Source: Rotaria sp. (Eukaryota). From it: 64,000 nt of DNA. The stretch lies in the NCBI GenBank assembly GCA_905330235.1, contig CAJNUA010000046.1, positions 311,575-375,574 on the forward strand, read 5' to 3'. Numbering within the stretch: position 1 is the first letter of the stretch; every line of letters begins with the position of its first letter. The position numbers were made by a program, and so were the translations under genes. The notes under the pieces are model-generated. The model did no database searches, was not told the origin of the DNA, and saw nothing but the letters and a program-made list of their open reading frames with translations. This document shows positions 44,201 to 64,000 of this stretch, piece after piece.

Positions 44201-44283
44201 CTAAAATTGATATTATTGTTATCACTACCTAACTTAATAAGTTTAATAAGAAATTTTATTTGTTTATAAAAGAATTCAACTGT

Positions 44284-44837
44284 TTATGTTTGATTAATAG
44301 TAATCATTTTCACTTCATCATGATATTGCCAATAATCATTTATGTATCCTTCTTTAACATGTTTTAACAAAACGTTTCGTCGAGTATCACAATACTGATA
44401 CTTTTCGAATATTTTTCTTTTAATTTTATCGAGTACGATTTCTTTAGTTAAGTCTTGTTCTAAAAGTTCACTAAGTTCTTCACATATTCTTTCTAAGTGA
44501 GCTTGATTTTCTTCGAAAACAATCGATTGATTATTTTTTTCTAAATAATATGCAAATGGATAAGTATATATTAACGTTCGACGACAATTTAATAAAACAT
44601 TAAATGCTTTTTCAATGATTTGAATATCATTTTTCGATATTTGTTGTTCATTTCGAATTAGTTTTGGACGAATTTTTTCGAATAATTTCGATTCTAAATC
44701 AAATGAATGTTCATGATTACGAAAGCGGTCATAATAATGCATATATCGAGATAAAACAAGAGCGTATTGATTTTGCAATTCATCACTAATTTGATCTGCA
44801 TTGTAGCGATTGCATTCTGTATGTTTAGACCATTTGC
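44284..44837 (-). CDS. Ariadne-type RBR E3 ubiquitin ligase, exon 2 of 2 (end of RING2 plus Ariadne domain)
   Basis: Acceptor ttgttattaag|GCAAATGG; phase 1 matches exon 1. Encodes G-KWSKHTECNRYNADQISDELQNQYALVLSRYMHYYDRF...TLIYTYPFAYYLEKNNQSIVFEENQAHLE...* (compare ARIH1 WYNCNRYNE...RYMNH...[29 protein letters not shown]). Confidence 0.85.
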
Positions 44838-45689
44838 CTTAATAACAAACAGAGATAATATTGTATTTGTCATCGAAATGTCAGTGCATAGCGACAATGA
44901 AATATACAAAAATTCAAAATATTTATCACATCTATGTGGATGTAAAAAATACAAAGCATTATGAATATTATTTTACTTATCTTGACTCGCTTAGGTATTG
45001 GAAGCATTTAACAGAGTTTCTCAATTTTAGTATCTTTTTCAATTTTCTATTTCACAAGAAAATCTAATCAGCATAGTTTCTTTTAGACTGCTATGTAAAA
45101 TTGACTTATCCTTCTCACCTTAATTATACTAATAAAAAGAATGTGTAATCTAAAGTCACTCTAATGTAAACAGACTTGGAGGAAGTATAGGTACCCGAGA
45201 AATCCATTACTGTATGCGTTTCAGATACATTTTTCTTAGTTTTTATTGACTTTGTATTTTTAATCGTCTTATCGCGAAGTTATTATTTTACTGTATTAAC
45301 AAATAAGACTGGAGAACTCGACCGATATTACAAACGGTTTTTTTTGCAAAAAATATTTTCTACTCAATCTCGAAAGACAAGGGATTATGTAAAATTAAGC
45401 AAAACAAACTGACAAAGAAACGTTTGCGATTGATCAATCACTATTGCATTCGGACTCACGTCAGTGCATAAGGGATATTCCAGTAAGATATAAAAAAATC
45501 TCCAAAATATAAGTGCCATTGGATCTTCTGTCCAAAGTTATAATCATTTGGCCAGAATTTTACCCTTCGTCATGGTATATAGCAACAAATCGAATGATGG
45601 TACTTTGACATGATATTTCTTCTTACCAACAGATCTATTTGTCAGTAGAATGTTCTGAAGGTTTCAGCTCAAAAGAATAACGGGTGGGG

Positions 45690-46480
45690 CATCATAAATG
45701 ACCGCTTTTCGCATAACATGTTTTCATCAATTAGTGTGTGTTTTAAAAAAAAACAAAATATACCACAAGATGCGACGTGAAAAGCTCTACAGTTTACACA
45801 AGGCTGTTTTTTTTTATAGTTGCACGTTTTGCTTTCAAAGTGGTCAAAGTTTTGCACGGCCAAATTTTAACCATGCGAAAACGATGTTTTTTCGATGCAA
45901 AATGAATTCAGTTTTTCTCATTTCATCTTTTTATCACTTGATATCTTTTATTAAATAAAACAACAAAACATACCACTAGATGCAGCATGAAAAGCTTTAC
46001 AATTTACAAAGAACAGCTGATTTTACATTTGTATTTTATGTTTTAAAAATTGACAAAATTCTGAGCGATCCGATATCGACGCTGCGAAAAAGATATTTTT
46101 TGTCATATAACAAATTTGTTTTTTCTTATTTCATCACCTGATATCTTTTATTTAAAAAAGAAATAAATACATCACGAGATGCAGCGTGAAAAGCTCCATA
46201 ATCTAGAAAGCAAAGCTGATTTTAATTATGTACTTTTTGTTTCGTAAAAAAAAGCAAAGTTCTGTGGGACCATTTTTCGCACGCTTAAAATTTGGTCACG
46301 CAAAATTCTGACCACTTTGGAAGCAAAAAGTGCAATTATAAAAAAGTCAGTCGTATGTAAATTGTAGGGCATTTTACGCCGGATCTTGTGGCATAGTTTT
46401 TTTTAAATAAAACGTATTAATTGATGAAAACATGTAATGCGAAAAGCGGCCATTTATTATGCTTCACCTATTATTTCCTT
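45690..46480. mobile_element. foldback element, second related copy of the 7570-8570 family, inserted in the Ariadne intron
   Basis: Terminal inverted arms ggggcatcataaatgaccgcttttcgcataacatgttttcatcaattag (45697-45745) and taattgatgaaaacatgtaatgcgaaaagcggccatttattatgcttcacc (46418-46468). The ataccacRagatgcagcgtgaaaagctYYaca subrepeat recurs 3 times direct and once inverted. Inner inverted pair at 45835-45885 / 46270-46320. Degenerate extension to ~45560-46610. Confidence 0.6.
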
Positions 46481-47169
46481 CGCAGGATATTTAAGTTCCA
46501 AAAAACAGGAAATTCTAGCATCTTTCATGAAATATGAGTGATTTCTTGACACTATATTATCTCGAGAGAGAAATATTCTGTTAAGCTAGCATTTTCAAAG
46601 CATTCTACTGACAAGTAGACTTATCTATGGGCAAAATCTCAGATCGAAATATTGTCATCGGACTTGTTGGTATATACCATGACAGAGGCAAAACTTCCCA
46701 CAAAATACCTATAACTCTAGATAGAAAACCTAAGAGAACTTATTCTTTTGGGGTTATTCATATCTCATTAGAGCCTAGTTTATGCATGAAGTTCGAATTA
46801 AAAAATGATTGATCAGTTGAAAACGATCCTCTGTGAGTGAATGAAATCTTTTGCAATTTAATTGCCCTCTACATTACTGAATATTTAGTTCTGGTTGTTT
46901 CTCATTAGTGATTATGCATTTATAAGTAACATTACAATTATGAATATTTTTCATAATTGTAACTTTATTTGTCTGTGCTCCATTACTTCATACAATTTGC
47001 TGTTCTCATTAATATTTTTAAAAAAATCTTTGTTCTGCTTTTTACTTCTGCTTATCAGATCTGAGATCATAGTCAAACTCAAACTCAGGATTGCTGAATT
47101 ATAATCTAACAGAGTATGTATCATCCTTCATGTTCTGTAGTTTTTCATTGCAAAATTCATTGTACTTAC

Positions 47170-48232
47170 CAAAGCATAGCCAACAAAATTCATAGTTACA
47201 TTTTCTACATGTCATATGGTTACAACCACCATTCTTTTCAATATTTACTTTACATTTTGGACAAGTTTTTGTGTTAGCTTTTAACCATACAATTGTATGA
47301 CTATCATCAAGTAGTTTTTTATTCCATTGTAATAATAGAATACATTTTATTGGATCATGCCATGGTTGAGCACATTGAAAACAGAATGATGTTTGACAAT
47401 AATCACATGTAATCAATTGAGCATAATTATAAGCCGATGTAAGAGATGTTGCATTAATAATATGACCGCAATTTTTTCCTGGACACCAACGAGCACGAGG
47501 ATTATTATCTACATAGGAATTTAATATGATCTTTGTATAAATATGTTTAACGAATTCATTATTATCAAGGAATTTTGTGATAGTTTCATCATCAATAAGA
47601 ATTTCACATTGAGAATCTGGACAAACAATTGTTTGAGCAAGACCTTCATTAATAATTTGATTCATCAAATAATTTTTCCAACAATTATTACAAAATGTAT
47701 GTTTACATTCAAGACTAAACATTTCTTTTTGTTCATCGGAATAACAAATAAAACATGTACCAGTTGATTCATTTACAGAGGTTTTTTCAGCAAATGGATT
47801 AACAATTTTTGCTTGTTGAAAAAATTCATCATGATCAATTTCATAGAATTTTTCTAATAATCGTTGTTTATTCCATTTGAAATAATGCAATAAAAGTTTA
47901 ATAATAGTCGGTGGTAATTGTAGAATATCTTTTACTTCATCAACATAATTCATCATTAATTCAACATATTGATTTTGAGTTAAAATAGAATAATGAAAAT
48001 TTGGATTTATTTCATCAGATGGTGTTAATGGTTCATCAATATATGGTTGAATAGTTTCATGTTGAGTATCTTCAGGAATTTGATAAAAATTTTCGTCAAA
48101 TTCATCAGCAGGAGTTGATGGTTCGCTAGTTTTATTTTCTAATTCATTTTGTTCAGCGAATTTCGGCGAAACAGGTGATAATTCTGTCATATCATAATAG
48201 CATTCATCATCATCGGTTTCGGTTTCACTCAT
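47170..48232 (-). CDS. Ariadne-type RBR E3 ubiquitin ligase, exon 1 of 2 (acidic N-terminus, UBA-like region, RING1-IBR-RING2); full protein ~538 aa
   Basis: MSETETDDDECYYD...CFICYSDEQKEMFSLECKHTFCNNCW...CPGKNCGHII...CDYCQTSFCFQCAQPWHDP...CPKCKVNIEKNGGCNHMTCRKCNYEFCWLCFG. Donor CTTTG|GTAAGTAC at 47169. The 22 aa after CFG in the raw ORF are intronic read-through. Confidence 0.85.
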
Positions 48233-51200
48233 TCTTTGAAATTGTTTTATTTTACTTTCAACTGTAGAATGAATAGCTTAGCTTTTTTACGTTGTTTACG
48301 ATAGTTTTGGTTCATGTACATGCTGAATTGCACAACCATTTATTGATTTGATGTCAGAACAAATGATTTCCTATGACTAATAGATGATTATTCTGTAATA
48401 TGAAGTGAAACATACTTGAAAACATTTGCCAAACTCCTTCAGTCCATTGGTCCATGTTATACTTTTTTCTATATATGGTAATGAAAGTTATCAATAGGTG
48501 TCCCTAGTTAGCGATGAAGAATACTATCCGAAACCATTCTTTATCGTAAAAAAAGTTGCATGATTTATTTCTCTCTATACTTTAAAAATGATATTTTATG
48601 TTTTTTCTAATACAATCCTCGATGTTCATTGGACTTTTTGAAATTTTATAGGAAGAGACAGTATAACGTCTTATTATTACTAAAACGATCAAAGTTTTTT
48701 CGGCGTTTTTCTTACATACGACACGAGAGAGATTGACAATTAAAAATCAATTTCTAACATTCTATTTAATTTTGTTCTCGAAATAAAATACTGTATTGTA
48801 TGATACTGATGCTTGTGAATAAGATTAAAAAAGGTAGTCGTTTAGATTTACTTATATTTTATAGCAAAATATGAATACAGAGTATTTACAATTTTTGCTA
48901 TAATGTCGTTATTCTATGTGTAATTTCATAAGATTCATTTGGTATCCTTTTATTCGAGAAGCTGGGTATTTTTTATAGGATAAGAAAAAATTTGACATAT
49001 TCTAAGAATATTTTAAAACAACTGCATCAATAAATCGGTCATTGGAGAACTATAGATTTTCCTTAAACGGTCAAGAAAATATTTTTTTCTCATTTTGTTG
49101 CATATTAATCATTATGTGACACATTTCTTTTCACTTGTTTCAAGAATAAACATCCAATTTTTTTGAATGAAAGCGCAATCTTTGATTTTTCAGTACTATT
49201 CTAGCATTCTGTCCTTCTTATTTGATCTCAGGAATTACTTTGATTTTTTTAAAAATTTGGTCACACTTCGTCTACGTACAGCTCGTATATTTCTATATTG
49301 ATTTAAAAAAACACTACTATTTATTCTTTTATTCAGAATAATCTTTAGCTGTTAAGTTTTCTTTTGCACTTCATAGAAAAAAAAAGTCGCATAGTATGCA
49401 CGCATCGTCCATCAAACCGGATGTGTAGCATGAAGAAAATAAAAAGATTAAGAAAGTCTCATTAATTCTGATTTTAGAAAGGAAGTCACGTTGCATGCAT
49501 ATATGAATGCGAGCAACCTATACAAAATCAAAAGAGAAAATGCACGCACGTTCTTGAAGATGATGATGAAAAACGATCATAAATATAAATCAAAAGAGAC
49601 ATTTTTTGAAATAAAATCTTTCTAAGCAATTATTTATAATGAAAGTACAATGCAAATTGTTTTTTTTTTTGAGAATTTGTGTTGTTTCGGATTGAATTGT
49701 CAAAATGTTAAGACTAATTGACAATTTAATATTCAATAGCATTTTATTACAATAAACTAAAATTCGCCGTATCTCTATTCGGCAAAAATGCAGTTTGATT
49801 TCATTTAAACTAAATTGTGCTAGGGAAATTAATTTCAATTTGAGATATTTTAAGCTGGAGGTTTCAACGGTTTTTGTTTTTATATAGAAGTTTATTTCAT
49901 AAAAAATACAGACGAAAAACTTAGCAATCATATATAACAAGAAGCTTAAAGAAAGAAGAAGTAATAAAAAATATTTTTCAAATCAAATAATTAAGCAAAC
50001 ATATTCTCATTTCACATTTACAAAGATCATTTAATAAATAATCGTCATTTGTTAATATGAGAAATTCATTTCATAGAAGAAGAACATAAAAGGTTTCAAA
50101 CAATTTTAATTTTAAAAATATTAAAATATAGATATTTAAGAAAATTTTTTTACTATTAAAAAAGTGTACTTTTAGTTTAAGTTTTACTCACGAGAGACTA
50201 TTGATTATCTAGAATAATATTGATAAAAATTATAGTAGTCGAAAGAAGTCCTGCTATCACATAACAAGTATATAAACTTAAATGCTTTTGCTTGATATTT
50301 GGATTGCAAATAGTGCTCAATAAACCCTGATCACATGTAGTAACACGAGATCAGTAGATCTTAATGCAAAGGATTTACGATGAAAGCACTGGTTCTTTCG
50401 TAAAAGCCTAAAAATACTTTTTTTTGAAACATTTCTGGTTTTTCACAATTTAAATGAGTCAATCTCCATTTTCTTATTAGCAAATAAAGGTTCACATGCC
50501 TATATTTTGTCACAGCGCCATTGCTGGCTGTGATTATGAAATTTTCAACGAAAACTTGATAAAAACAAAGCACTCATTGAAGAACATTTCAAGGCAAGTG
50601 GTTAATATTATCTGAAGATACCAGCCAGTTTTTGACGATTTCCTTCAACTGTCATGTGAAGATTACTCAAAAAATACTTCATAAAGCAGGCAAACTAAAA
50701 TCGTTTGACATAGAATTTTTTTAGTTATAGAAGCAGCACGGTGCTGTCGGCTAAGTGATCTAACATTATAAGATGTTTTTTTTATGTTGAGATATCCTTG
50801 TCTGAAGAAAAAAATTTATATTGGCCTTCTAACTCTTCCGTATGAAGGCGAATCAGAGTTCAACATGTTCTATTTATGATTAAACTATGAAAATAAATGA
50901 TTAAACTTCAGGTGCTTTTTATCTGATAGCAAAACTTGTTGCGACTACTGTATCATTACTCCAAAATGAATGTGTAATATCGCAAATCATTGGCTCCCTA
51001 TTCGAAGCTTATTTTATTCATGTGTACCACAGTCATACCACAATTCCTAATACAGAGTGATTAAAAGAAAACATCGAAGAATTCGACTTTTTTTTTTCAA
51101 TGGAAAACTTTTAAAATATTAATACCACTAGTGTAACAAGATGTACATTACCGATGAAAAGATACTTGATGTTTATGTTATTTCTTCCCAAAGTGAATCA

Positions 51201-51506
51201 TTGAAATTTTGAAGAACAGTATAATATGATACTTTTCGTAGCCTACCCTTTGAAACTGAAATCATTCACGTAGATAGATTTATAAAGAAATGTCCACAAA
51301 GCAACACGTACAGGTTTTTGCATACACATGTGTAAATGCACATATTTGAGAGAAGAAGAGATTTAAAACTAATGTTATAGATTTTTGAAAACGAGATAGT
51401 TAACAATTTAGCAGTTACTATAAAATATAATTGATTATTGATACATGTAAAAGAGAAAGAAGAACAAAAATAAAACCAGGATAATGATAGTAAGGTATAT
51501 CGTAAA

Positions 51507-51819
51507 TTACATGAGATTACAAATAACTGATGTTGGATTTAATTTATCGTCAGTTTTATATGGTATGTAGACTTTAATTTCTTCGAGAAAAGTAAGGTAG
51601 TCCTTCAAACTGAGTGCCAAAGTTAGTTGAGATCTAGCAACGTCTTCTTTTAATGAAGAAAACATAGCTTGTTGGCCTGCTTGGCACATATCATAAACTT
51701 TATGCAGTAAATGACCGTTCATCCCTTCGAAAGCTAGTAGAAGAATACTAAGTTCTTTATCAAGAAGAAACGATTTGACATGATCTTTAGTCCACATATC
51801 GATACAATGTGGATATTCC
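51507..51819 (-). CDS. TIR-SAM (SARM1-like) protein copy 1, exon 3 of 3: SAM domain, stop
   Basis: Acceptor ttttattgcag|G. Encodes (V)EYPHCIDMWTKDHVKSFLLDKELSILLLAFEGMNGHLLHKVYDMCQAGQQAMFSSLKEDVARSQLTLALSLKDYLTFLEEIKVY...NLM* with a SAM-like W..V..FL....L..F.GMNG..LL pattern. Phase 2 matches exon 2. Confidence 0.75.
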
Positions 51820-52369
51820 CTGCAATAAAACAAACAATGAATTATATGTTCATTTGATAAAATGTTCAAGTTTTCCTTTATTAAACAGAAGTATAAACCA
51901 ATGTATAGATAATCAAGAACGATTAAAAATACACTAGTAGAAAATTTGACACAGACATTCTAAAAATTGATCCTCGAGATTAACAACTCTTAAAACTCTA
52001 CTTCCTCTTTTGGTATCCTGGTGGTGGTAGCTCAGCCGATTAGATTACACTTTTAATAAGGGTCAGTACAATATTTCTGAGATTTATCAAGTAGAAATTT
52101 CCATCTCAATAAATGTAAATTTGAATAAGCATTGCGCTGTTGTTCAGTTGACACAAATGTTACAAACATGATGCTTTTTTTCAGATTTCTAAGAATTCAG
52201 TAAGAAATACAGACAACACCTGTTGGACATTTCCGTCACAATTTATACTATATCTCATCTCAAATCATCAAGATCTCTGTATTTTATAAAAAGAACTTTC
52301 ACAACAAGTTTTCAAGGTTTCTTTTCAGTAGTTTAATACTTCTAACTCTCATCTTTAAAACAGACTTAC

Positions 52370-53225
52370 ACAACTGGATGTAGTTCTTTATTATTTTCAA
52401 CACTCGGAATTGTTTTCGGTGTATTATCCACTAAATAACTTGGATTATGCTGAACTTGATCTTGTTCAATAAGTGTTGAATTTGAATTATTCATTCGAAA
52501 TAGGCCAATCTGTTTCTTAAGTTCTTGATAAGCTTTATCAAAACCAAGCTTTGGAAAATCAACATAAATAAGTGCTGAAGTTAATACTCCAAGCCATCCA
52601 TCAGCTTTATAGTTGGTTGTCATCACTATTGGAATAATATGACAACGACGTTTAACTGCATAACTAGCTTCCATTTCACAAAAAGGACTCTGTTTGTAAG
52701 CATCAGACATACAAACAAGTACAAATTCTGCATTTTCAATAGCTTTAGCCATAGCATCAAATGTAGCACCATGCATCAATCGAGAATCAATCCAAACACG
52801 TAATTGATCTTTCTCAAGAGAATTTAGAATTCGATGACAAAGTTCTTTATCATTATGTGAATAACTTATCATAATATCATATTGTTTTTTGATTATCGTC
52901 GATGAAGAAATTGAAGAAGATTGTTCTTGAACTGTTTTGACTGTTGTTTCTGATTCTTTTTCTAATTTCCATATCAATGCAGTAGATACTAATTGTAGAT
53001 CTTGTTGTGGTGATGAAGTCAATGTTCGAACATGATTCATAAAAATGTCGTTGCCTTTGAGTATAGCAGCAAAGTCTTTGTTGAAAGCTAATGCAAGAAG
53101 AATTTGAAGTGCAGGAAGTTTTGCTTTGAGTGGATTGAATTGATCTTCGAGAGCACATCGAAGAAAAAGAGAGTGACCTTCTTGTTTGATTAATTCTTCA
53201 CGAATTTGATCATGCTGTGTTAATA
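52370..53225 (-). CDS. TIR-SAM (SARM1-like) protein copy 1, exon 2 of 3: linker plus TIR domain
   Basis: Acceptor tatttag|TATTAACACAG, donor GTTGT|GTAAGTCT. TIR domain DIMISYSHNDKELCHRILNSLEKDQLRVWIDSRLMHGATFDAMAKAIENAEFVLVCMSDAYKQSPFCEMEASYAVKRRCHIIPIV, with a Glu in FCEME aligned to the SARM1 catalytic Glu (KDWVHKEIV). Confidence 0.8.
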
Positions 53226-53683
53226 CTAAATAGAAAAAAGAAACACCAGTTTCTCAATGTCTATCTTAAAAAAAAACCTTTCTGATGCAATTTAAAAGAA
53301 AAAAAAAAAGAAATGCTTTCACTTCAACACATATAATATGTTACTTTAACTAAAGAAGGATCATACATTTATAAAGTCTAATTAGAATATTATTGTAAAA
53401 CAACATGGTATCAGACGAGTTGCTTTGTTAACTTAGATTGAAAGTTCAATAGATAGAATGAATCTATTCAAAGAATTGTTTTCACAGCTAGAGTTTGTTT
53501 AGAACAATAAAATGATTAAGTATCACACGTTTGATGAACGTAAGTGTTCTCAAAGAGTATTTTGCTAGTTTTACTGCTTGATGATGTACTCACTACAAAT
53601 AGTTGTGTTTCATCTAACTGAGCGGAAAAAAATTGCTTTTACCTTAATGTCTTACGTATGAAGAAAAGAGCTTAAAAACTCAC

Positions 53684-54458
53684 CTTTAAGACTTCGAAGA
53701 CTATTATGTAGACGACCTTCCGTTCGAATACCTCCATCAATAACATTTTTAATAAAAGTAATAAAAACAGTAGCAATTCTACTCGAATTTTGCAGTTGTT
53801 TTATATCTTCTTCTCCCATAATAACTGCTAGAATTCGATAGGCTTGTAAATGAATTTCATCATCATTATCTGATGTTCGTATAAGTACATTCATGAGATC
53901 GACTAACTGAAGGCTTTTAAGATAAATAACAAGCTCGCTGTCCAAAGTAAAATAGAAGAGAATTTGAAGAAGTTGTTGAACAAGAGGTATACCAGCTGGA
54001 TCTATTGTTACTTGATTTGATTCATTGACAAACATTAGAATACGTTTGATAGTATCAGCAATGCGTCGACATGTATCGCGCGTTTCATCACTAGTAATTA
54101 CATCACCAAGATCCATTCGAAATAATAGGTTAGTTATATGTAGTAGAATATTTATCATAGCTGAATTCCATTTGACATATGGTGGTCGACCAGTATAATT
54201 CTCACTAAGCCAGGTATTGAACCATTTGAGATGAGTACGTCGAATTCGTTCAATTATCTCTTGACGTCGATTACCTTCATACCAAGTAATTTGGTTTGGA
54301 TAATGCGTAAGCATAGTAAGCTCTTCATTTGAAAGAGAATTGGACTGTTCTTTAGCAACTTTTTCGAACATTTGTGTATACGTAGGAGAGCAAACTTGAT
54401 CAACAGATCTAGCTAATGTCTCGTTAAACTCTGTGCAGACAAATGCCATTGTTAACAA
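53684..54458 (-). CDS. TIR-SAM (SARM1-like) protein copy 1, exon 1 of 3: ~258-aa alpha-helical (ARM/HEAT-like?) N-terminal domain; total protein ~647 aa
   Basis: MLTMAFVCTEFNETLARSVDQVCSPTYTQMFEKVAKEQ...LRSLK. Donor AAAG|GTGAGT; phase 1 completed by exon 2. Confidence 0.7.
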
Positions 54459-57400
54459 CGTTTATTCATGAAAAAAATGTTTTAACGTGATGAAATAAAT
54501 AAAAAGTAACGTATTTTAAAAGGACATATATCAAGCTTATATTTTTATTTTTCTTGACGACAAAGTCTATATTAGCAACATACAGAAAGAAAAAGAAAAT
54601 GTTTCACGTTGTAGAAATTTCAACCACAATGAAATTCTTAACGTGTCGTTCACGTTGATTTTTGTTACAGAAGTTGTGAAATGACGGCAAGAAAAAAAAA
54701 CTCCTCTATCACCCTTCCTACAGCCATAAATACAGAACGTATAGAAAATAAGTAACTACTTCTCTTCAAGACAAAACAATACATTTACTATAAACAGAAG
54801 TAGATGGTTGATTCGAGTTAGAATATAAGTGAAGACGAAAGAACTTAAGTAAATCATTATACTTAACTAAAAACAACGTTTAACATTCAAAGACAGAAGT
54901 TTAATAATCAAAGCTATGATTTCAATGTTTTGGTTAGTTCTGATTAATTAAATTAATTAGTATCATCAATAACATTATCAAATCATTCGTGGACTTAATT
55001 TAATCTTCCTCAAAATAGTGTATTTAAAGTTCGATCTTGCTGTTCAGATAGACGAGCATTAGTAGTAGCTTTACAGCTGATGATCGCTGTTTTCATATCA
55101 TTAGTCTGTATTAAGAGATCATTTTTTAGGGAAATCATTAGTTTCGACTGTAGATATTTCAATTATGTTCTTATGATAAATTGTTTCCAATATATTTTGT
55201 TGACGCTCATTAAATATTCAAAATACTATTTAGAACTTTGGCGAAAGTTGATAAATATCATTAATGTGCTTTTTCTCAATTTTCCGATTGTTCATTGGAG
55301 ATATATGGGTACAAAGCCTTTCGTCTCGCTTTTCTGGTACTTTAACACAGTGCGATATCTTCGAACCTTCTTGTTGTGGTATCGTCGTCATCAAATGTTC
55401 TTTTCTGAATTCAGTGCATACTATCTCTTAAAGTATTCGTTTATTTTAATAACCTGCCTAGTCATTGCAAGATAGTTTCTACATATGCAAGACCTTCAGT
55501 ATCGGTTACCTCTTATTTTTCTGCAAATTTCGAATATCACTGTAGGCTATTTCTTTTATACACCTAATATCCGTTATTTTTCAAATAAATATCTTATTTT
55601 CTACAACCATACTGTGTGAGTCATCCACAAGGAAACTAAGATATTGAAATACTATCATATATGGTGGTAACTCCTTTGGTTTTCAAGGAATTTTTAAAAT
55701 ATAATTTTATAATATGTTTTACAAGTCTGGAAACGTTTATGCATGTTCTGATCTCTAAATTTATGCATTTTGTGAATTGAAAACAAATCAATCCATATTC
55801 AAAAACGGCCTTTAACTAATATGGCAGAATCTGTTTCGCAATCACTTTAATGATTTTCAGCTCATTTTCAATTTACATTATAATTCAACCTAAGTTTCTC
55901 TTTTGTTTTATTTGATTACTTATAGAGAGAGAGACTATTTTGCATTTTCTCATTTATTTCCGAAATGATATTTATCTCCCAAATCTTCATTTATATTTGA
56001 ACTCAAAAATTCATGATAACCATAGTTGATTACAGAATTTTGTTCTGTTTTTAATAATGGAACGATCCGAAACATCAGATTTTTCTCGTGATACAGATGA
56101 ATATATCAATCAAATGAGCCAATTTTCAAAATGAAAATGAAGCATCACTTTTTATTTTTAATCTTTTTTATAATTTATTGTTTTTATTCAAACTACTGCT
56201 TTTTTCTCATAAAGTGACTTATTGTAATCATTGAATAAAATATTGACTCAAGGAAATTTTGTTACTATTTAGAATAGCACGTTAATTTCTTTGCCATTAA
56301 AGTAAATTATTAAATAACACTTGATCGATTAATCAATTTGAACCAACGTCAAATAAGAATTATATTGCAAATGTGAACTAATTTAATTTGGCTTTTCGAA
56401 CTTCCCAATGATGATGATATATTAAAGTCGAAATTCGATCTAGAGAGTCAGCAAGATAAACAAGTCTAAGACATGCAGATCAGATTGAGATATCGACATT
56501 TTACTAGGTTTTTCAATTCGCGCAAAATTTGAAGTCGAAACTCGATAGTCAATTTTCCACGTGATCTGAGAGAGACCATAGGTTTTTGTTGAAAAACCCA
56601 GTACAATTTTGATATTTGATGAACAAAGGCCTGGAGAACCAAACCATTCGAGATTTGTCTACTACTCACTAGTACTACTCAAATGAATGCTGTCTCAGTC
56701 GAACAGCAATTTGACACTTGAAGAGATTTTCCCGTAAGTTTTCATCGAAACACCGCATAGAACTCATTATCGTAATAGAGTTGATTACTGAAATGAATCC
56801 TCATATTTTACAAGCGTAATTTGTATTGATGCGTCATTTATGAATAGTTTTATATAATTGTAATAACCTACTTTCACATGAAAATGAAAAATTTTCTAAT
56901 CTATGAAAAAGCTATCCGCATAATTCTAAGCTTATTATTAAAATTGACATCATATTAGGCTTGTGTTTTTGTGCTATTTTTCTTAATATGTTATTGTGGT
57001 TACAAAGCTGAAAACATTTGTGTTTATAATTAATCCTGATCTGTTTTATTTTTCATTAAGTATTATCTGACTATTATAATCTGTTCTAAGATTCAATTGA
57101 AACACATGTGATGTGTCACCTATCATGAACTATAATAACTATGACATTGGGACGAATGCTCGAAAATAAGATGATATCATCTATTATGCTCATGAATCAG
57201 AAAATCATAATAAATTATATTTGAAAGATCCAGAAAAAAAATTTAACATGAACAATTGTCAATGGTTCATAATCGATGATGCCGATATACGGACTACATA
57301 TATAGAGTTCCATGATACTTGTTGTTGATCTATTTAGAAAAATTTAGAATGATCAATGAAAAACGTCAGACACATCCAATTCAAATATAAATTTTGCGTC

Positions 57401-58283
57401 AAGTTAAAACATATTTCATAGCATTGATGTAAATCAGTCAAGAATATTTAGCTTTCGTCTACTGTGAAACATGGTCTAAAAAGAGTGCTGAATGTATATC
57501 AATGACGACTCATTATTATATATTGCATTTCTAGAAGATGAACTAAAAGAATGGTGAAAAAATGTGTCTGAAAGTAGATTGAATAAAACAATTTCTCAGT
57601 GATTAGTCATAGCTGTTACAACGTGTTTTACATTCTAATGCTGCAAGGGTTGCTCTAGCAACTTTGTTTTTGTTACCATAAAAACAACTGTTTTTGAATT
57701 CATATTGAATTTTCATCTACCATGTTCTTTGCAATTAGCGTTAAAAAAAACTATTAATCGTCATCAAACACCGACTTTCATTATTTTCTTTCTTCAACGA
57801 TTATGAAGTTTACAAAACATTATCATTCACAAAAACCTAGCACTTTTACTATTCAAAACTTTTAAGTGTCGTATATGTTCATTGATAATCTAGAAAACAA
57901 TTTATGATTACATCAAAGATAAAACTAATTTTATATATATTCATAATTTTTGTAAAGTTTTTACACTAAATATATTCCATAAGATGCGCATTCTTATAAT
58001 ATTCTACTTCAATAGAGGTCTTCTTTGGCTTATCTATCTGCTAATTGATATATTCTATGGAAATTTCTTCAGTCTTCTCAAAACCATTATGATATTCTGC
58101 TCGCTTTATTTCATCTGTATTCCTGACATTAAACGGTAACGTAAATAAAAAATATGTGATGCGATTCCAGTGTTCAATATACATTTATGAAAATCAGATG
58201 TGTAATAATAGAAGAATGAATAAAATTAGAATGGTCACTAATGTGTACAAAAAACAAATGACTTTGACGAAAAATACCATAAG

Positions 58284-58593
58284 TCACATAAGATTGCAAA
58301 CGCTCGATGCTGGATTCAATGAATTGCTAGCTGTAAATGGTATGTAGATTTTGATTTCTTCGAGAAAAGTAAGATAGTCTTTTAAACTGAGTGTTGCACG
58401 CTGAGATCTGTTAACATCTTCTTTCAGTGATAAAAACATTCCTTGTTGGTTGGCTTGACACATGAAGTAAGCTTGATGTAGTATTTTTCCGTTCATTCCT
58501 TCCATAACAGGCAAAAGTGCATCAAGCTCTTTATCAAGAAGAAATGATTTCACATGATCTTCAGTCCACATATCAATACTATGTGGATATTTC
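58284..58593 (-). CDS. TIR-SAM (SARM1-like) protein copy 2, exon 3 of 3: SAM domain, stop
   Basis: Acceptor ttttttgtag|G. Encodes (V)KYPHSIDMWTEDHVKSFLLDKELDALLPVMEGMNGKILHQAYFMCQANQQGMFLSLKEDVNRSQRATLSLKDYLTFLEEIKIY...NLM*, ~75% identical to copy 1. Confidence 0.75.
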
Positions 58594-58791
58594 CTACAAA
58601 AAAAAACAATAATTGCTTAACTTGGCATCATTCGGTCTATAATTATGGCTTTCTCATAAATTATGCATTAGATTCATGACGATGAATGGAAGACAAAATA
58701 AATTCACTAAACGTTACTCTCTACACTAATAGTTATAAAGAAGAGTAGCTCATGTCTAGAATGACAACTCCCATCGTTAAAATAGACTTAC

Positions 58792-59647
58792 ACAACTGGA
58801 TGTGGTTCTTTATTATTTTCAACATTCGGAATTGTTTTTGGTGTATTATCCACTAAATAACTTGGATTATGCTGAACTTGATCTTGTTCAATAAGTGTTG
58901 AATTTGAATTATTCATTCGAAATAGGCTAATCTGTTTCTTAAGTTCTTGATAAGCTTTATCAAAATCAAGTTTTGGGAAATCAACATAGATAAGTGCTGA
59001 AGTTAATACTCCAAGCCATCCATCAGCTTTATAGTTGGTTGTCATCACTATTGGAATAATATGACAACGACGTTTAACTGCATAACTAGCTTCCATTTCA
59101 CAAAAAGGACTCTGTTTGTAAGCATCAGACATACAAACAAGTACAAATTCTGCATTTTCAATAGCTTTAGCCATAGCATCAAATGTAGCACCATGCATCA
59201 ATCGAGAATCAATCCAAACACGTAATTGATCTTTCTCAAGAGAATTTAGAATTCGATGACAAAGTTCTTTATCATTATGTGAATAACTTATCATAATATC
59301 ATATTGTTTTTTGATTATCGTCGATGAAGAAATTGAAGAAGATTGTTCTTGAACTGTTTTGACTGTTGTTTCTGATTCTTTTTCTAATTTCCATATCAAT
59401 GCAGTAGATACTAATTGTAGATCTTGTTGTGGTGATGAAGTCAATGTTCGAACATGATTCATAAAAATGTCGTTGCCTTTGAGTATAGCAGCAAAGTCTT
59501 TGTTGAAAGCTAATGCAAGAAGAATTTGAAGTGCAGGAAGTTTTGCTTTGAGTGGATTGAATTGATCTTCGAGAGCACATCGAAGAAAAAGATAGTGACC
59601 TTCGTGTTTGATTAATTCTTCACGAATTTGATCATGCTGTGTTAATA
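58792..59647 (-). CDS. TIR-SAM (SARM1-like) protein copy 2, exon 2 of 3: linker plus TIR domain
   Basis: Same splice sites as copy 1; 856 nt, ~97-99% identical to 52370-53225 (only a few aa differences, e.g. GFDKAY vs DFDKAY). Confidence 0.8.
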
Positions 59648-59921
59648 CTAAATGAAAAAAAAATTATAAGTTTGTAAATGAGTGCGTTAGAAAGTATTTG
59701 GAGAGAAATTTATAATATGTCTAATTTTCAAAGTATATGCTGTTATAGCTATAGAATCAATATAAGGATTTTCTTTGGATCTTGTATTTACTAGGTGTTT
59801 CCTAATATATCGGTTGAATGAAAATTCGTTATTAAGATGATATATTCATCTAAGAGAATAGAAGAATTTTTTTGTTTTTTTTAATCATCATCATCCGTCG
59901 AAGAAGACAACTAAAACTAAC

Positions 59922-60696
59922 CTTTGAGACTTCGAAGACTATTGTGTAAGCGAGCTTCATAGGGAACGCCACCATCAATAGCATCCTTAATAAAAGTAAT
60001 AAAAACAATAGTAATTCTACTTGAATTCTGCAGTTGTTTTATATCTGCTTCTGCCATAATAACTGCTAGAACTCGATAGGCTTGCAAATGAATTTCATCA
60101 TCATTATTTGATGTTTGTATAAGTGCATTCATGAGATCGACTAACTGAAGATTTTTAAGATAAATAGCAAGTTTACTATCCAAAGTAAAATAGAAAAGAA
60201 TTAAAAGAAGCTCTCGAACAACAGGTATAGCAGTTGTATCGATGGTTATCGGATTCGATTTGCTGATGTTCAGCAAAATACATTTGATAGTATTTGTGAT
60301 TTGTCGAAAAGCACGACGCGTTTCATTGCTAGTAATAACATCATCGAGATCCACTCGAAAGAATAAGTTAGTCGCATGTAGCATGAGATCATTCATAACT
60401 AAACTCCATTTGAAATACGGTGGCAAGCCAGTATATTGTTTACTTAACCAACTATTGAACCATTTGAGATGAGTACGTCGAATTCGTTCAATTATTTCTT
60501 GACGTTTATCTCCTTGGTACCAAGTGATCTCGTTTGGATAATACACGAGTACAGTACGCTGTTCGTTTGAAAGATTATGAGGCTGTTCTTTAGCCACTTT
60601 TTGAAACAATTGTGCATATAAAGGAGAACAAACTTGATCAACAGCTCGAGCGATTTCCACTGTGGATGCTGTAGAGTTCTCAGTCATTGTTAACAA
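59922..60696 (-). CDS. TIR-SAM (SARM1-like) protein copy 2, exon 1 of 3: divergent N-terminal helical domain
   Basis: MLTMTENSTASTVEIARAVDQVCSPLYAQLFQKVAKEQ...LRSLK. Donor CAAAG|GTTAGT. Same 775-nt length as copy 1 exon 1, ~70% aa identity. Confidence 0.7.
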
Positions 60697-63102
60697 CGTT
60701 TATGTCTTACGAATTGTTAAAATATAATATTGCAACGCCAATAAGAAAAGAAAAAAAAATCTTACTTTTCTTTTTACGTTGATGCCAAGACGATGCAACA
60801 GAAAATCGACAGAAAGAAAATATAAACGTATCATGATATAAAATCTTCAGGCAAGATAGAATGTTAAACCTTTCTTCAGCTTTGCGTGTCATGCAGAAAT
60901 TATGAAATGATGTTAAGAAGAAAAAAAATTATATCTTCCACTACACTGAGTACCAAAAGATGCATCAAAGGAAATAGAAAACAATCGTTTCTCTACAAGA
61001 TAAACATAATCAAATTACTTATACACAAAATGATTTATAACTAAAGCTAGTAGTCAATATTCATCTTTTGAGAAATGAAAAGCAATTCTTTATTTTTTCA
61101 AGGTTACGCCATTTTTGTTCGGCAATGATATACTTGACGTCTTTAACCAAGTGCAATCTTAACAGGATTTATCTGTCATATACAATAGCAATGTCAAGTT
61201 TCTTTTTTTTTTTTAATTGGAACAGATTAGCAAAACTCACTGAAGAAGCAATTAAAGTTTATCCATAAAAGATATCTAGACAATTAGAGAGAACGGGAGG
61301 ATCCATCAAAACTGGGCGAATCTGCACAGAGCAGAGGAGGATAAATATCTCTAGATGTTCAAGACATCTACTGCGAATATTTTTCTCTTTTACCACACAA
61401 CTTTCTGCAAAATTTTCAGTTAGAAGAGCATATCTAAATAGGAAATAAGTTGAATATGAATCAAGGGTTTCCTACATAAGTTCTGAACTTCAACAAAAAA
61501 ATTAGTTTATAGGTAAACAAAGAATTATTACTATTCTACTATATCGATATGAGCTTCGAGTACTTAGGGCGATGTTTTCAATAGCATATTATCCGATGAC
61601 ATTATCCCTTTTAATAATACTGATATAAACAGAAAAAACGTGATAGTTAAGATCTTCAATTCGACCAGTATTTTTTTTTTAGAAACTTAAATGTGCTATG
61701 ATTTCATTGTATGTAAAGTAACAGAATTATACAAAGCGATATGTTGATGTAGGTATGGCTATTCTCTGTACTTGCACCTTAATTATCAGGTTTCTTCTAT
61801 TTATCTCACTATTATTCAAAGAGATAATGTCATCGGATAAGATGCCATTCAAAACATTGTCCTAAGTAGTCGAAGTCTATATAAATATATTTCGGTGAAG
61901 ATCACTCTTTGTTGACATATTAACTAATTTTGTTGAGGTTCAGAACTAATGGGATGGCCTTTATGGTGTTGAAATAATTGAAGATTATGTTACATAAGCA
62001 GGTATCTATTTCGTGAAGCAGTTATATGAATGTTGTTATATTGTCGAGGGCCATTGGTATTGAACTTCATTTTTTGTTTTTACTATTTTTGATTCGTTAA
62101 AATTCTATGCGTTTAGAAAACAAAAACTTTGCAATAGGTTAGATTTTTGTTTGTTGTTTATGCAATATGTGTTTTGTAGAGTTTGGTGATGCCAAAAGTC
62201 ATCCGAAATCGAAACCACAGCTTCGAGTGCTAAAAATGAGAAGAAAAAAAACGGTTCTGATTCAATTTCCAATATATTACATAGAACCTAAATCATTAAA
62301 TCATAAGATAAATACGAACAATTTAAATATATTTTCAAGAAATTGTCATTATTGAATTTGTTGAGATTAAAGACGCCATATATTTCAGTACTTAAGCAAA
62401 ACAAGATTATACACATATATTGTGAATTATGTAATCTCAAGAATAAAAAAAGTGAAGATTTCTCGATATAGACTTGAGAATTTTTTGTATCTATCTGAAG
62501 ATTTTATGCATCTGGTTCCAAGAAATTTGTAAAAAGTTTGTTCTAGTTCGATTCCAGTTTTGTTTTGGAACCATCGAACTCTACTGTTTTGTCTCGTTTT
62601 CTTCATATGTATATATTCATTTCTATGTTTAATATATCTGTTTAATAAACTGTTATTTAATAAAAAAAAGAAACAATATATTTGAACAAGCAGGCTCTTT
62701 GTGGAAAGTTTTTTTTTCTAGTGAACGTCCAGAAGGAGAGAGGATTGGTGAAAAAATGTCATTCTTACCTGAACATCTTTTATGTATGATTCCTTATTAT
62801 CTAACCATCCATGAAACACATACTATCAACGCAACTTTCTAATGCTTATATTATATTTAAGACATCATTTACATCTATTAAGGTGAGAAGATACGACGAT
62901 TTATGACAAGCATCAACTCTAGAACTTCAATTGTGTCTATTGATAATTAAGGGGAAAAATATATAATTTCAGACTACTAGAATATTAACCAATCCAAAAT
63001 ATGATTAGTTTATCTAATATCCGAGTTAGTTTTCATCATAGAAAGTGTGAATGAGAGCAATATTCTGGATTTTATTTAAAAAAATAACAAAAAAAAAAAG
63101 AT

Positions 63103-64000
63103 TTAAAAACTTGTTACATTTTCATCAAAATCTTCATCAAAAAGTTCTTTTAGAATTTTTTTTCGTTTAATCGATTCAATATATGCTCGATTTTCTACCA
63201 CATCAGGATGAGAAGGTGATAATGTTTTTAAAAATTGTTCAGTTGATTTTTCTACGCTCTCTATAGCTTCATCCAATTTTCCTTGACTTGAATAAACAAG
63301 TGCTACATTAAAAAGTGTTATCCCAACTAATGAATGATTTTCTGGTAAAGATATTGATGCAATTTCAAGACTTTTAAAATAACTTTTTAATGCATCTGAA
63401 TATTGTTCTTCTCGATAATACATTAAACCAATATTATTATAAAGTAATGCAAATGATGGATGTGTTAATGGTAAATATTCTTGTTGACATTCTAAAGCAA
63501 GTTTTAAATAAGTCAATGATTCATGAGATCGGCCAATTTTTAAATAAACATTTCCAACAGTATAATACGAAGAACCTAATGTACTAGGATTACGTGGTAC
63601 AATACGTTCTTGAATTTCAATTGATTTCTTATAGTAATATAAAGCATCGTTATATTTAAGTTGTACAAGATATGTATCACCTGCATTATCATAAGCTAAT
63701 GCAAGTTCATTATCATGTGGTTCAGTTACTTGTTCAAGAATTTTTAAAGTACGTTGAAATGATTTAATAGCTTCGGAATATTTTCCTTGTTTTGACAAAA
63801 TAATGCCTATATTATTTGTATAATTACAAATAGTAAGTAAATCTGGAGTGTTTGAACGAAGTTGTACACCAAGTGCTTTTTGATAATATTCATGAGATTT
63901 TTCACAATTATCTAGACGTAAATACATTCCAGCAATATTACCATAAAGTGAAGTTAATTCTAACGTATTGGGTGACATAAATCGAAGAAATGCATCTAAT
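63103..64000 (-). CDS. TPR-repeat protein (kinesin-light-chain-like TPR array), C-terminal part; ORF continues upstream beyond the window edge
   Basis: Seven or more 34-aa TPR units (AGMYLRLDNCEKSHEYYQKAL, YDNAGDTYLVQLKYNDALYYYKKSIEI, YNNIGLMYYREEQYSDALKSYFKSLEI, LFNVALVYSSQGKLDEAIESVEKS). Stop at 63103. The frame stays open from 63978 to 64000, so the N-terminus (possibly an NB-ARC or other domain) is outside the window. Confidence 0.75.
   Translation of the reverse strand, partial: LDAFLRFMSPNTLELTSLYGNIAGMYLRLDNCEKSHEYYQKALGVQLRSNTPDLLTICNYTNNIGIILSKQGKYSEAIKSFQRTLKILEQVTEPHDNELALAYDNAGDTYLVQLKYNDALYYYKKSIEIQERIVPRNPSTLGSSYYTVGNVYLKIGRSHESLTYLKLALECQQEYLPLTHPSFALLYNNIGLMYYREEQYSDALKSYFKSLEIASISLPENHSLVGITLFNVALVYSSQGKLDEAIESVEKSTEQFLKTLSPSHPDVVENRAYIESIKRKKILKELFDEDFDENVTSF

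What the first reader, a model, noticed from the sequence alone, without database searches (positions are those of the whole stretch)
51507..54458. Non-canonical domain order (N-terminal helical domain, then TIR, then C-terminal SAM) with the catalytic glutamate retained
Canonical SARM1/TIR-1 is ARM-SAM-SAM-TIR. Here the TIR precedes a single C-terminal SAM. The TIR keeps a Glu (FCEME) at the position aligned to the SARM1/plant/bacterial TIR NADase catalytic glutamate. This suggests an NAD+-cleaving effector whose oligomerisation module (SAM) is rearranged. Such an architecture may be undescribed for an animal lineage and is reminiscent of bacterial TIR-SAM antiphage effectors.
Basis: partly seen in the sequence, partly recalled or inferred. 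Interest (0 to 1): 0.65.

Follow-up and report, generated by a model that had tools for sequence, protein, structure and literature searches.

The report
Rotifer ARM–TIR–SAM gene, lipid-anchored
This is a normal, intact bdelloid-rotifer gene (one of two tandem copies) for a protein with an armadillo-repeat domain, a TIR domain that keeps its catalytic glutamate, a hidden C-terminal SAM domain and a probable lipid-anchor signal; it belongs to a large, catalogued but functionally untested animal family, so it is a useful annotation refinement, not a new kind of system.

Summary
A three-exon, minus-strand gene (54449..51507, 644 aa) encodes an all-helical armadillo-repeat (ARM) domain, a TIR domain and a C-terminal domain. 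Pfam does not call that last domain SAM. Three other lines do: a fold comparison, a profile search of PDB sequences, and a homology bridge to algal TIR–SAM proteins. The Glu of FCEME (E441) aligns with SARM1 E642 and is present in 177 of 180 family TIR domains.

- The TIR is not of the SARM1 type.
- The gene is eukaryotic, not bacterial-like.
- The ARM–TIR family is already catalogued across animals. It includes rotifer paralogues, listed in a 2026 preprint.
- In that preprint, four isolated TIR domains of the same 40%-identity cluster were inactive in E. coli. TIRs of neighbouring clusters produced cADPR or depleted NAD+. NAD+ cleavage here is therefore plausible but unproven.

New points found here:
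- The cryptic SAM follows this TIR type in rotifers, a fish, a scallop and green algae.
- A conserved CaaX box (CNLM) suggests farnesylation.
- The family is very large in bdelloids (887 clusters at 50% identity).
- A tandem paralogue lies at 60687..58284, and its TIR-bearing exon has been homogenised by gene conversion.

Verdict: new member of a known kind, of moderate interest.

The parts
51507..54449 (-). Copy A, the gene of the finding. It has three exons (54449..53684, 53225..52370, 51819..51507 including the stop) and encodes 644 aa.
   Evidence: Splice sites and the only open reading combination were found. The junctions agree with orthologue proteins.
52957..54428 (-). Armadillo-repeat (ARM) domain, aa 8-345. 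It spans exon 1, intron 1 and the 5' part of exon 2.
   Evidence: The AlphaFold2 model is all-helical with pLDDT of about 90. Foldseek hits SARM1, importin-alpha, beta-catenin and designed ARM proteins. Paralogues hit Pfam ARM families.
52492..52881 (-). TIR domain, aa 371-500.
   Evidence: Pfam TIR_2 E=1.4e-21. Profile hits to solved TIR domains. 44% identical to a lancelet TIR of cluster A0A0B7AZE4_1.
52669..52671 (-). Codon GAA for E441, the putative catalytic glutamate. It is the second E of FCEME.
   Evidence: Aligned with RPS4 E88 and SARM1 E642. Glu in 177 of 180 family TIRs. Same column as the Glu predicted structurally for paralogues in Table S2 of the preprint.
51567..51809 (-). Cryptic SAM domain, aa ~545-625, in exon 3.
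51510..51521 (-). C-terminal CaaX box CNLM (aa 641-644), a probable farnesylation signal.
   Evidence: 21 of 21 full-length members of alignment A1 end in C-x-[LVI]-[MLI]. 52 of 94 family members with an intact tail do so, with X = M 29, L 11, I 9.
58284..60687 (-). Copy B, a tandem paralogue with the same three-exon structure (60687..59922, 59647..58792, 58593..58284). It encodes 643 aa and also ends in CNLM.
   Evidence: tblastn and the gene model.
52344..53225 (-). Gene-conversion tract in copy A: exon 2 plus about 26 nt of intron 2. Its partner in copy B is 58766..59647.
   Evidence: 98.8% nucleotide identity, against 79% and 76% for exons 1 and 3 and about 50% for the introns.

Best explanation
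The locus encodes one of two tandem copies of a bdelloid-rotifer (Rotaria sp. Silwood2) member of the eukaryote-wide ARM-TIR family. Its full architecture is ARM repeats, a 21-aa flexible linker, TIR, a 37-aa flexible linker, a single divergent SAM domain, a short tail and a CaaX box.

Most likely mechanism (inferred, not shown):
- The TIR is an NAD+-processing enzyme that uses E441. Its product would be cADPR and/or ADPR, with or without NAD+ depletion.
- Like other catalytic TIRs, it needs self-association to be active.
- The C-terminal SAM provides that oligomerisation.
- The farnesylated C-terminus holds the oligomer on a membrane.
- The ARM domain acts as an autoinhibitory or ligand- or partner-sensing module, as it does in SARM1.

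This is a SARM1-like logic built from a TIR of another clade and in another domain order. The huge, tandemly duplicating and gene-converting family, in animals reported to lack Toll-like receptors, points to innate immunity or cell death.

What is shown: the gene structure, the domain folds and their order, conservation of the Glu and of the CaaX box, purifying selection, and the family's size and spread. What is inferred: catalysis, oligomerisation, prenylation, regulation by the ARM domain, and the immune role.
For: - Architecture.
- Glu aligned with SARM1 E642 and RPS4 E88, and near-invariant (177/180).
- Related TIRs of neighbouring clusters are Glu-dependent cADPR producers or NAD+ depleters: C. 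gigas 639-aa protein with TIR 369-497, Adineta steineri 666-aa protein with TIR 366-501, Latimeria, herring (preprint 10.64898/2026.04.20.719644).
- TIR then SAM is the only order seen: 108 of 207 family proteins have both domains and none has SAM first. The order recurs after the same TIR type in an eel, a scallop and Chlamydomonas eustigma.
- The CaaX box is conserved.
- Both copies are under purifying selection: dN/dS 0.36 for exon 1 and 0.20 for the SAM exon.
- Family size: 887 representatives at E<=1e-30, and ten sampled were all bdelloid.
- Toll-like receptors were not detected in A. vaga or R. tardigrada (PMC8609888).
Against: - The four TIR domains tested from the very same 40%-identity cluster (lancelet, gar, tunicate, Chlamydomonas; 36-44% identical to this TIR) gave no detectable cADPR isomers or NAD+ depletion when expressed alone in E. 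coli.
- The aromatic residue four positions before the Glu (W in SARM1's WxxxE) is variable in this family: Y 86, N 41, F 17 of 180.
- Some non-catalytic TIRs also keep this Glu.
- Pfam does not recognise the SAM. No oligomer was modelled.
- The inter-domain arrangement in the full-length model is uncertain (pTM 0.56).
- The CaaX box is absent from 42 of 94 family members with an intact tail.
- No expression or functional data exist for this gene.
Confidence: 0.55

Rival explanations
1. The protein is a non-catalytic signalling adaptor or scaffold. The TIR would act only through TIR-TIR contacts and the SAM through SAM-SAM contacts, as in MyD88-type adaptors, with the Glu kept for structural reasons.
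For: All four isolated TIRs tested from the same 40%-identity cluster were inactive in E. coli. The profile also resembles the MyD88 and TLR15/TLR2 TIRs. The aromatic residue of the WxxxE motif is not conserved.
Against: The Glu is kept in 177 of 180 diverged paralogues, which is hard to explain without a function. Bdelloids are reported to lack the Toll-like receptors that such adaptors would serve. TIRs in neighbouring clusters are Glu-dependent enzymes. Isolated TIRs often need an oligomerisation module, which was removed in those assays.
Confidence: 0.3
2. The gene is a rearranged orthologue of SARM1/TIR-1, that is, a domain permutation of ARM-SAM-SAM-TIR.
Confidence: 0.05
3. The gene was acquired from bacteria by horizontal transfer, as a relative of antiphage TIR effectors.
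For: The best solved-structure sequence match is the bacterial CRISPR-associated TIR protein Cat1. PADLOC TIR models match. Bdelloids are known for horizontal gene transfer.
Against: The gene has two spliceosomal introns. The ARM and SAM partners are eukaryotic. PADLOC matches cover only the TIR. The same TIR type is 36-44% identical in lancelet, gar, tunicate and Chlamydomonas.
Confidence: 0.03
4. The architecture is an artefact of mis-assembly or of the gene model.
For: Public gene models for this locus are flawed. P0002 stops at the exon-2 donor. P0001 is a chimera of copies B and A, from an assembly that lacks 5.5 kb of the window.
Against: The same order and junctions occur in both window copies and in orthologues of three genera. 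Exon 3 is under purifying selection. The TIR-then-SAM order recurs in 108 family proteins.
Confidence: 0.02

Closest known systems
ARM-TIR proteins of invertebrates and lower chordates. This is TIR cluster A0A0B7AZE4_1 in Hurieva et al. 2026 (bioRxiv 10.64898/2026.04.20.719644) and the 'ARM-TIR' class in the Aplysia immunome (PMC9334734).
   Same: An N-terminal ARM (Pfam 'TPR' clan) domain is followed by a TIR with a predicted catalytic Glu. Rotifer paralogues P0066 and P0141 are listed in this cluster. The window TIR is 44% identical to the lancelet member. Each listed member has about 100-110 unannotated residues after the TIR.
   Different: No SAM and no lipid anchor is annotated for the family. 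The bdelloid expansion is extreme (887 clusters at 50% identity). The CaaX box was seen in bdelloid members; among the non-rotifer fragments examined only one ends in a CaaX-like box (CGMQ).
SARM1 / C. elegans TIR-1 (ARM-SAM-SAM-TIR NAD+ hydrolase)
   Same: The three domain types are the same, the catalytic Glu is equivalent (E441 to E642), and the presumed logic is the same: SAM oligomerisation plus ARM regulation of a TIR enzyme. SARM1 is the top Foldseek hit.
   Different: The domain order is ARM-TIR-SAM and there is one SAM, not two. The TIR and SAM belong to other sequence clades (E=0.69 and 0.23 against SARM1 chains). It has a C-terminal CaaX box, whereas SARM1 (from my own knowledge) has an N-terminal mitochondrial targeting sequence. 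F replaces the W of WxxxE.
Green-algal TIR-SAM proteins (for example Chlamydomonas eustigma CEUSTIGMA_g3745/g3747, annotated 'SAM domain-containing protein')
   Same: The TIR subtype is the same, and it is followed by a SAM at the same distance. The rotifer SAM profile hits exactly the residues that Pfam calls SAM_1/SAM_2.
   Different: The records seen are about 200 aa and have no ARM domain. Their SAM is canonical enough for Pfam. They have no CaaX box.
CaaX-prenylated membrane proteins (Ras, lamin B type)
   Same: The C-terminal C-x-aliphatic-M/L/I box is conserved across orthologues.
   Different: No polybasic stretch or second Cys lies upstream. The modification is untested, and I found no report of a natively prenylated TIR protein.

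Membership tests
ARM-TIR family (TIR cluster A0A0B7AZE4_1, Hurieva et al. 2026) | The TIR domain is at least about 40% identical to cluster members. | tested here: met
   44% to lancelet A0A8J9W3M3, 42% to gar W5N735 and 39% to Chlamydomonas. Paralogues P0066 and P0141 are listed in the cluster.
ARM-TIR family (TIR cluster A0A0B7AZE4_1, Hurieva et al. 2026) | An N-terminal ARM/HEAT-type (Pfam TPR clan) solenoid lies before the TIR. | tested here: met
   The AlphaFold2 model and Foldseek hits to ARM proteins. Pfam ARM families match in paralogues. Pfam gives no ARM hit on the window protein itself.
ARM-TIR family (TIR cluster A0A0B7AZE4_1, Hurieva et al. 2026) | A Glu sits at the catalytic position of helix alpha-C. 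| tested here: met
   E441.
Catalytic (NAD+-processing) TIR domains | Glu-dependent NAD+ cleavage or cADPR production. | not testable with these tools
   Published tests on the nearest relatives are mixed: four of the same cluster were inactive, while neighbouring clusters were active.
Catalytic (NAD+-processing) TIR domains | The WxxxE motif, with an aromatic residue four positions before the Glu. | tested here: inconclusive
   The window protein has F437. Across the family the position is Y 86, N 41, F 17 of 180.
SARM1/TIR-1 | Tandem SAM domains lie between the ARM and the TIR. | tested here: not met
   There is a single SAM after the TIR.
SARM1/TIR-1 | The TIR belongs to the SARM1 clade. 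| tested here: not met
   The profile gives E=0.69 against a SARM1/TIR-1 chimeric chain. SARM1 has a different cluster representative in Table S4.
SARM1/TIR-1 | The ARM domain has an NMN/NAD+ allosteric pocket. | not tested
   Only similarity at the fold level was shown.
SAM domain superfamily | The Pfam SAM_1, SAM_2 or SAM_PNT model matches above its threshold. | tested here: not met
   No hit for the window protein. One of 28 relatives hits SAM_PNT at E=0.036.
SAM domain superfamily | The compact helical SAM fold. | tested here: met
SAM domain superfamily | Sequence homology to bona fide SAM domains. | tested here: met
   Profile A5: liprin-beta 1e-4, ETV6 1e-3, SMS1 SAM 5e-3. It hits the Pfam-positive SAM regions of P0377 and P0357.
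SAM domain superfamily | Self-association, as a polymer or a ring. | not testable with these tools
   No multimer prediction tool was available.
CaaX-prenylated proteins | Cys at position -4, an aliphatic residue at a2, and X that specifies farnesyl (M/S/Q/A) or geranylgeranyl (L). | tested here: met
   CNLM in both copies. The family pattern is C-x-[LVI]-[MLI] in 52 of 94 members.
CaaX-prenylated proteins | Actual prenylation, proteolysis and methylation. | not testable with these tools
   This needs an experiment.
Bacterial TIR antiphage effectors | A match to a defence-system protein over more than the TIR, in a prokaryotic gene context. | tested here: not met
   PADLOC hits lie within aa 341-467, that is, the TIR and the linker before it. 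The gene has introns and eukaryotic neighbours.

The most novel reading that the evidence does not exclude
The whole ARM-TIR family, from green algae through molluscs, rotifers and lancelets to fish, may really be an ARM-TIR-SAM family. It would be a second, independently assembled SARM1-like class of autoinhibited, SAM-oligomerised TIR enzymes. In bdelloids it would be farnesyl-anchored to membranes and expanded into hundreds of genes as a main innate-immune or cell-death effector system in animals without Toll-like receptors. This would also explain why the isolated TIR domains of this cluster were inactive in the 2026 screen: the SAM had been cut off.
Probability: 0.35. Interest if true: 0.65.

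Novelty: new member of a known kind. Interest (0 to 1): 0.42.

Why it matters
If the hidden SAM and the lipid anchor are real, they give a concrete and cheap hypothesis for an uncharacterised family of hundreds of rotifer genes, with relatives in many animal phyla. The hypothesis is that activity needs the TIR-SAM unit, possibly on a membrane. That would explain the negative results obtained with bare TIR domains of this cluster. It would also add a second, convergent example of the SARM1 design (ARM brake, SAM hub, TIR enzyme). Finally, it points to what may replace Toll-like-receptor signalling in bdelloids. For genome annotation, it corrects two faulty public gene models and adds two unannotated features.

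Tried and rejected
- Direct Pfam scans for SAM or ARM on the window protein found nothing beyond the TIR. The SAM call rests on structure, a broader profile and the homology bridge.
- The first SAM profile (28 sequences) gave only sub-significant SAM_PNT and liprin matches. A more diverse 43-sequence profile reached E=1e-4.
- The AlphaFold-database fold library (afdb50) was not available. I therefore could not test, by fold, the C-terminal tails of the full-length gar, lancelet or oyster proteins.
- The search for homologous proteins with short domain queries returned only short proteins or fragments. No full-length non-rotifer ARM-TIR protein was retrieved, so the presence of SAM in them is inferred from fragments (eel, scallop) and from tail lengths in Table S2.
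- The representative search listed only the top 150 of 887 strong hits, and all ten that were sampled were bdelloid. It could not show the edge of the family.
- A SARM1-orthologue reading, a bacterial-transfer reading and a mis-assembly reading were all considered and rejected (see the rival explanations).
It was later confirmed against Table S4 of the preprint.
- I could not inspect model coordinates, so the position of E441 in the pocket rests on alignments, not on superposition.
Full report
**What is at the coordinates.** The window is AT-rich eukaryotic DNA, about 30% G+C. On the minus strand, three open segments join through canonical GT-AG introns in only one frame-consistent way. Exon 1 is 54449..53684, exon 2 is 53225..52370 and exon 3 is 51819..51507, giving 644 aa.

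The flanks are 99.8-99.97% identical to Rotaria sp. Silwood2 assembly GCA_905329745.1. The source is therefore that bdelloid rotifer. Orthologues of 54-88% identity with the same junctions exist in Rotaria, Adineta and Didymodactylos.

**Domains.**
- TIR: Pfam calls TIR_2 at aa 373-491 with E=1.4e-21, and TIR with E=2e-5. It calls nothing else.
- Full-length model: AlphaFold2 on a 23-sequence alignment gives mean pLDDT 78. It shows an all-helical solenoid at aa 8-345 (pLDDT about 90) and a disordered linker at 347-367. The alpha/beta TIR domain covers 371-503, a second disordered linker covers 502-538, and a small helical domain lies at about 545-625.
- N-terminal domain: Foldseek against the PDB puts full-length human SARM1 and C. 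elegans TIR-1 first (E=1.8e-5), followed by importin-alpha, beta-catenin, APC and designed armadillo proteins. Seven of 23 family members hit Pfam ARM_ARMC5 and six hit V-ATPase_H_N; others hit ARM_PUB, HEAT_2 and Arm. The N-terminal domain is an armadillo-type repeat.

**Is the C-terminal domain a SAM?** Pfam says no. There is no hit for the window protein, and one of 28 relatives hits SAM_PNT at E=0.036. Three independent lines say yes.
2. A profile of 43 diverse family domains hits PDB sequences of liprin-beta-1 (E=1e-4), ETV6 (1e-3), the SMS1 SAM (5e-3), the FLI1 PNT domain (0.012), and then neurabin, Shank2 and SARM1. Most of the 31 hits are SAM or PNT domains.
3. The same profile finds the region after the TIR in 17 non-rotifer proteins that carry this TIR subtype. 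They include an eel protein (P0318, E=1.4e-10), a scallop protein (P0369) and Chlamydomonas eustigma proteins P0377 and P0357. In those two algal proteins Pfam itself calls SAM_1/SAM_2 above its threshold on the same residues.

The domain is a divergent, 'cryptic' SAM. Between the two window copies it evolves with dN/dS = 0.20.

**The glutamate.** FCEME is aa 437-441. The second E (E441, GAA at 52671..52669) aligns as follows:
- with the Glu of RPS4 (SVWCVRE) and with Cat1 in HMMER alignments;
- with SARM1 E642 in a profile-sequence alignment and in a MAFFT alignment with the TIRs of the preprint's Table S4;
- in the same motif column as the Glu that Hurieva et al. predicted by structural alignment for paralogues P0066 (E598) and P0141 (E578).

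Across 180 TIR domains of the family the position is Glu in 177, and the Cys three residues before it is present in 179. The residue four positions before it, which is W in SARM1's WxxxE, varies: Y 86, N 41, F 17.

**What family is this?** A full HMMER scan of 1.84 billion representatives found 887 proteins at E<=1e-30. The best 150 all scored below 1e-56, and the ten I looked up are all from bdelloids. Of 207 family proteins collected, 108 contain both a TIR and the SAM-like domain, always in the order TIR then SAM.

The family is not private to bdelloids. In the supplementary tables of Hurieva et al. 2026 (bioRxiv 10.64898/2026.04.20.719644), paralogues P0066 and P0141 sit in a 40%-identity TIR cluster with representative A0A0B7AZE4_1. 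The cluster also holds proteins of Brachionus, Lottia, Mytilus, Sepia, Pocillopora, Schistosoma, Branchiostoma, Phallusia, spotted gar and Chlamydomonas. Most have an N-terminal 'TPR'-clan domain, which I take (from my own knowledge of Pfam clans) to include ARM and HEAT repeats. They also have a predicted catalytic Glu and about 100-110 unannotated residues after the TIR. The window TIR is 44% identical to the lancelet member and 42% to the gar member. An 'ARM-TIR' class of 11 genes was also listed for Aplysia (PMC9334734).

The ARM-TIR architecture with a catalytic Glu is therefore already catalogued in animals. What is not annotated is the SAM.

**Relation to SARM1 and to bacteria.** The TIR profile matches Cat1 (1e-8), TLR15/TLR2 (7e-7), RPS4 (2e-5) and MyD88 (2e-5), but a SARM1/TIR-1 chimeric chain only at E=0.69. 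SARM1 has a different cluster representative in Table S4. The SAM profile matches the SARM1 SAM at E=0.23. This is not a permuted SARM1 orthologue. It is a separate assembly of the same three domain types.

PADLOC models of bacterial defence proteins match only the TIR portion. The gene has introns, and its neighbours are eukaryotic: carbonic anhydrase, an LRR protein, an Ariadne RBR ligase and a TPR protein. Nothing supports a bacterial origin or a 'bacterial TIR-SAM' analogy.

**Is it an NADase?** Direct evidence is lacking, and the nearest evidence is mixed. In Table S4 of the preprint, the four TIR domains tested from this very cluster showed no activity when expressed alone in E. coli. 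These were the Chlamydomonas, lancelet, gar and Phallusia TIRs.

TIRs of neighbouring clusters that are 34-36% identical to the window TIR were active:
- C. gigas A0A8W8J0Z4 (639 aa, TIR 369-497, E439) made cADPR.
- Adineta steineri A0A814VN55 (666 aa, TIR 366-501, E440) made cADPR.
- The herring TIR made cADPR.
- The Latimeria TIR depleted NAD+.

Activity always depended on the Glu. My reading is that the enzyme hypothesis is the best one, at about 0.55. A testable reason for the negatives is that the oligomerising SAM had been removed. The adaptor-only rival stands at about 0.3.

**An unreported feature: a CaaX box.** Both window copies end in CNLM. All 21 full-length members of alignment A1 end in C-x-[LVI]-[MLI]. 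In the wider family 52 of 94 proteins with an intact tail do so, with X = M 29, L 11, I 9. This is the classic prenylation signal, where M favours farnesyl and L geranylgeranyl (established knowledge). A search for natively CaaX-bearing TIR proteins found only experimental CAAX tags. A membrane-anchored SAM hub with tethered TIRs is the resulting model; it is inferred, not shown.

**Locus structure.** A second, intact copy lies 3.8 kb upstream on the same strand, at 60687..58284 (643 aa). Exon 2 encodes the end of the ARM domain, the TIR and the following linker. It is 98.8% identical between the copies, including a 604-nt stretch with no difference. Exons 1 and 3 are 79% and 76% identical, and the introns barely align. 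The identical tract runs about 26 nt into intron 2. This is a gene-conversion tract.

The near-identity has consequences in public data. Assembly GCA_905329745.1 has a single gene between the TPR gene and the Ariadne gene and lacks window 53244..58765. Its protein, P0001, is copy B's 5' part fused to copy A's 3' part, with the breakpoint inside exon 2. P0002 is the reciprocal combination and is also truncated at the exon-2 donor. Either that assembly collapsed the repeat, or an unequal-crossover allele exists.

**Verdict.** The locus is a new member of a known, catalogued but functionally uncharacterised kind (ARM-TIR). The refinements made here are a cryptic SAM after the TIR that appears ancient, a conserved prenylation box in many bdelloid members, an extreme bdelloid expansion, and a tandem pair homogenised by gene conversion. 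Interest is moderate. A specialist would not be very surprised, but the SAM and CaaX findings turn an uncharacterised family into a directly testable one.

Noticed in passing
window 58284..60687 (minus strand): A second intact copy of the gene (643 aa, same three exons, also ending in CNLM) lies 3.8 kb upstream of the reported one.
   Followed up: yes
window 52344..53225 and 58766..59647: Exon 2 of the two copies is 98.8% identical in nucleotides, with 604 nt free of any difference. Exons 1 and 3 are 79% and 76% identical and the introns about 50%. This is a gene-conversion tract that covers the TIR exon and about 26 nt of intron 2.
   Followed up: yes
L001 (GCA_905329745.1, CAJNSZ010000042.1) against window 41507..64000: The public Rotaria sp. 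Silwood2 assembly has a single chimeric B/A gene and lacks window 53244..58765. The flanks are 99.8-99.97% identical. This is either an assembly collapse at the identical exon 2 or an unequal-crossover deletion allele. Database protein P0002 is the reciprocal A/B chimera and is truncated at the exon-2 donor.
   Followed up: partly
window 51510..51521 and 58287..58298: A conserved C-terminal CaaX box (CNLM), a probable farnesylation signal. It is present in 52 of 94 family members with an intact tail.
   Followed up: partly
family proteins P0035, P0098, P0121, P0158, P0104: Some family members carry tandem SAM-like domains (P0035) or two to three TIR domains in one protein (P0098, P0121, P0158). 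P0104 appears to repeat the whole TIR-SAM unit. Some of these may be fused gene models.
   Followed up: no
window 63103..63978 (minus strand; the gene runs off the window end): The upstream neighbour is a TPR_12-rich protein. In R. magnacalcarata a fused gene model (P0049) joins an ADP-ribosyltransferase (ADPrib_exo_Tox) plus TPR protein to an ARM-TIR N-terminus. An ART-TPR gene, another NAD+-using enzyme type, may therefore be the conserved neighbour.
   Followed up: partly
window 15923..17167 (minus strand): An intronless 414-aa ORF encodes a pentapeptide-repeat protein (Pfam Pentapeptide, E=9e-31) with a hydrophobic N-terminal segment. From my own knowledge, this family is mostly bacterial, so it could be a horizontal-transfer candidate in a bdelloid.
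   Followed up: partly
window 3004..4231: A long Thr/Ala/Ile-rich, mucin-like repetitive ORF (397 aa) lies in a region of strong GC skew (0.30) and AT skew (-0.23), with an equally long ORF on the opposite strand. Pfam gives no match.
   Followed up: no
window 35053..35835, 40346..41218 and 44284..48232: Other neighbours are an alpha-carbonic-anhydrase exon, an LRR_6 (RNI-type) leucine-rich-repeat protein and an Ariadne-type RBR E3 ubiquitin ligase.
   Followed up: partly
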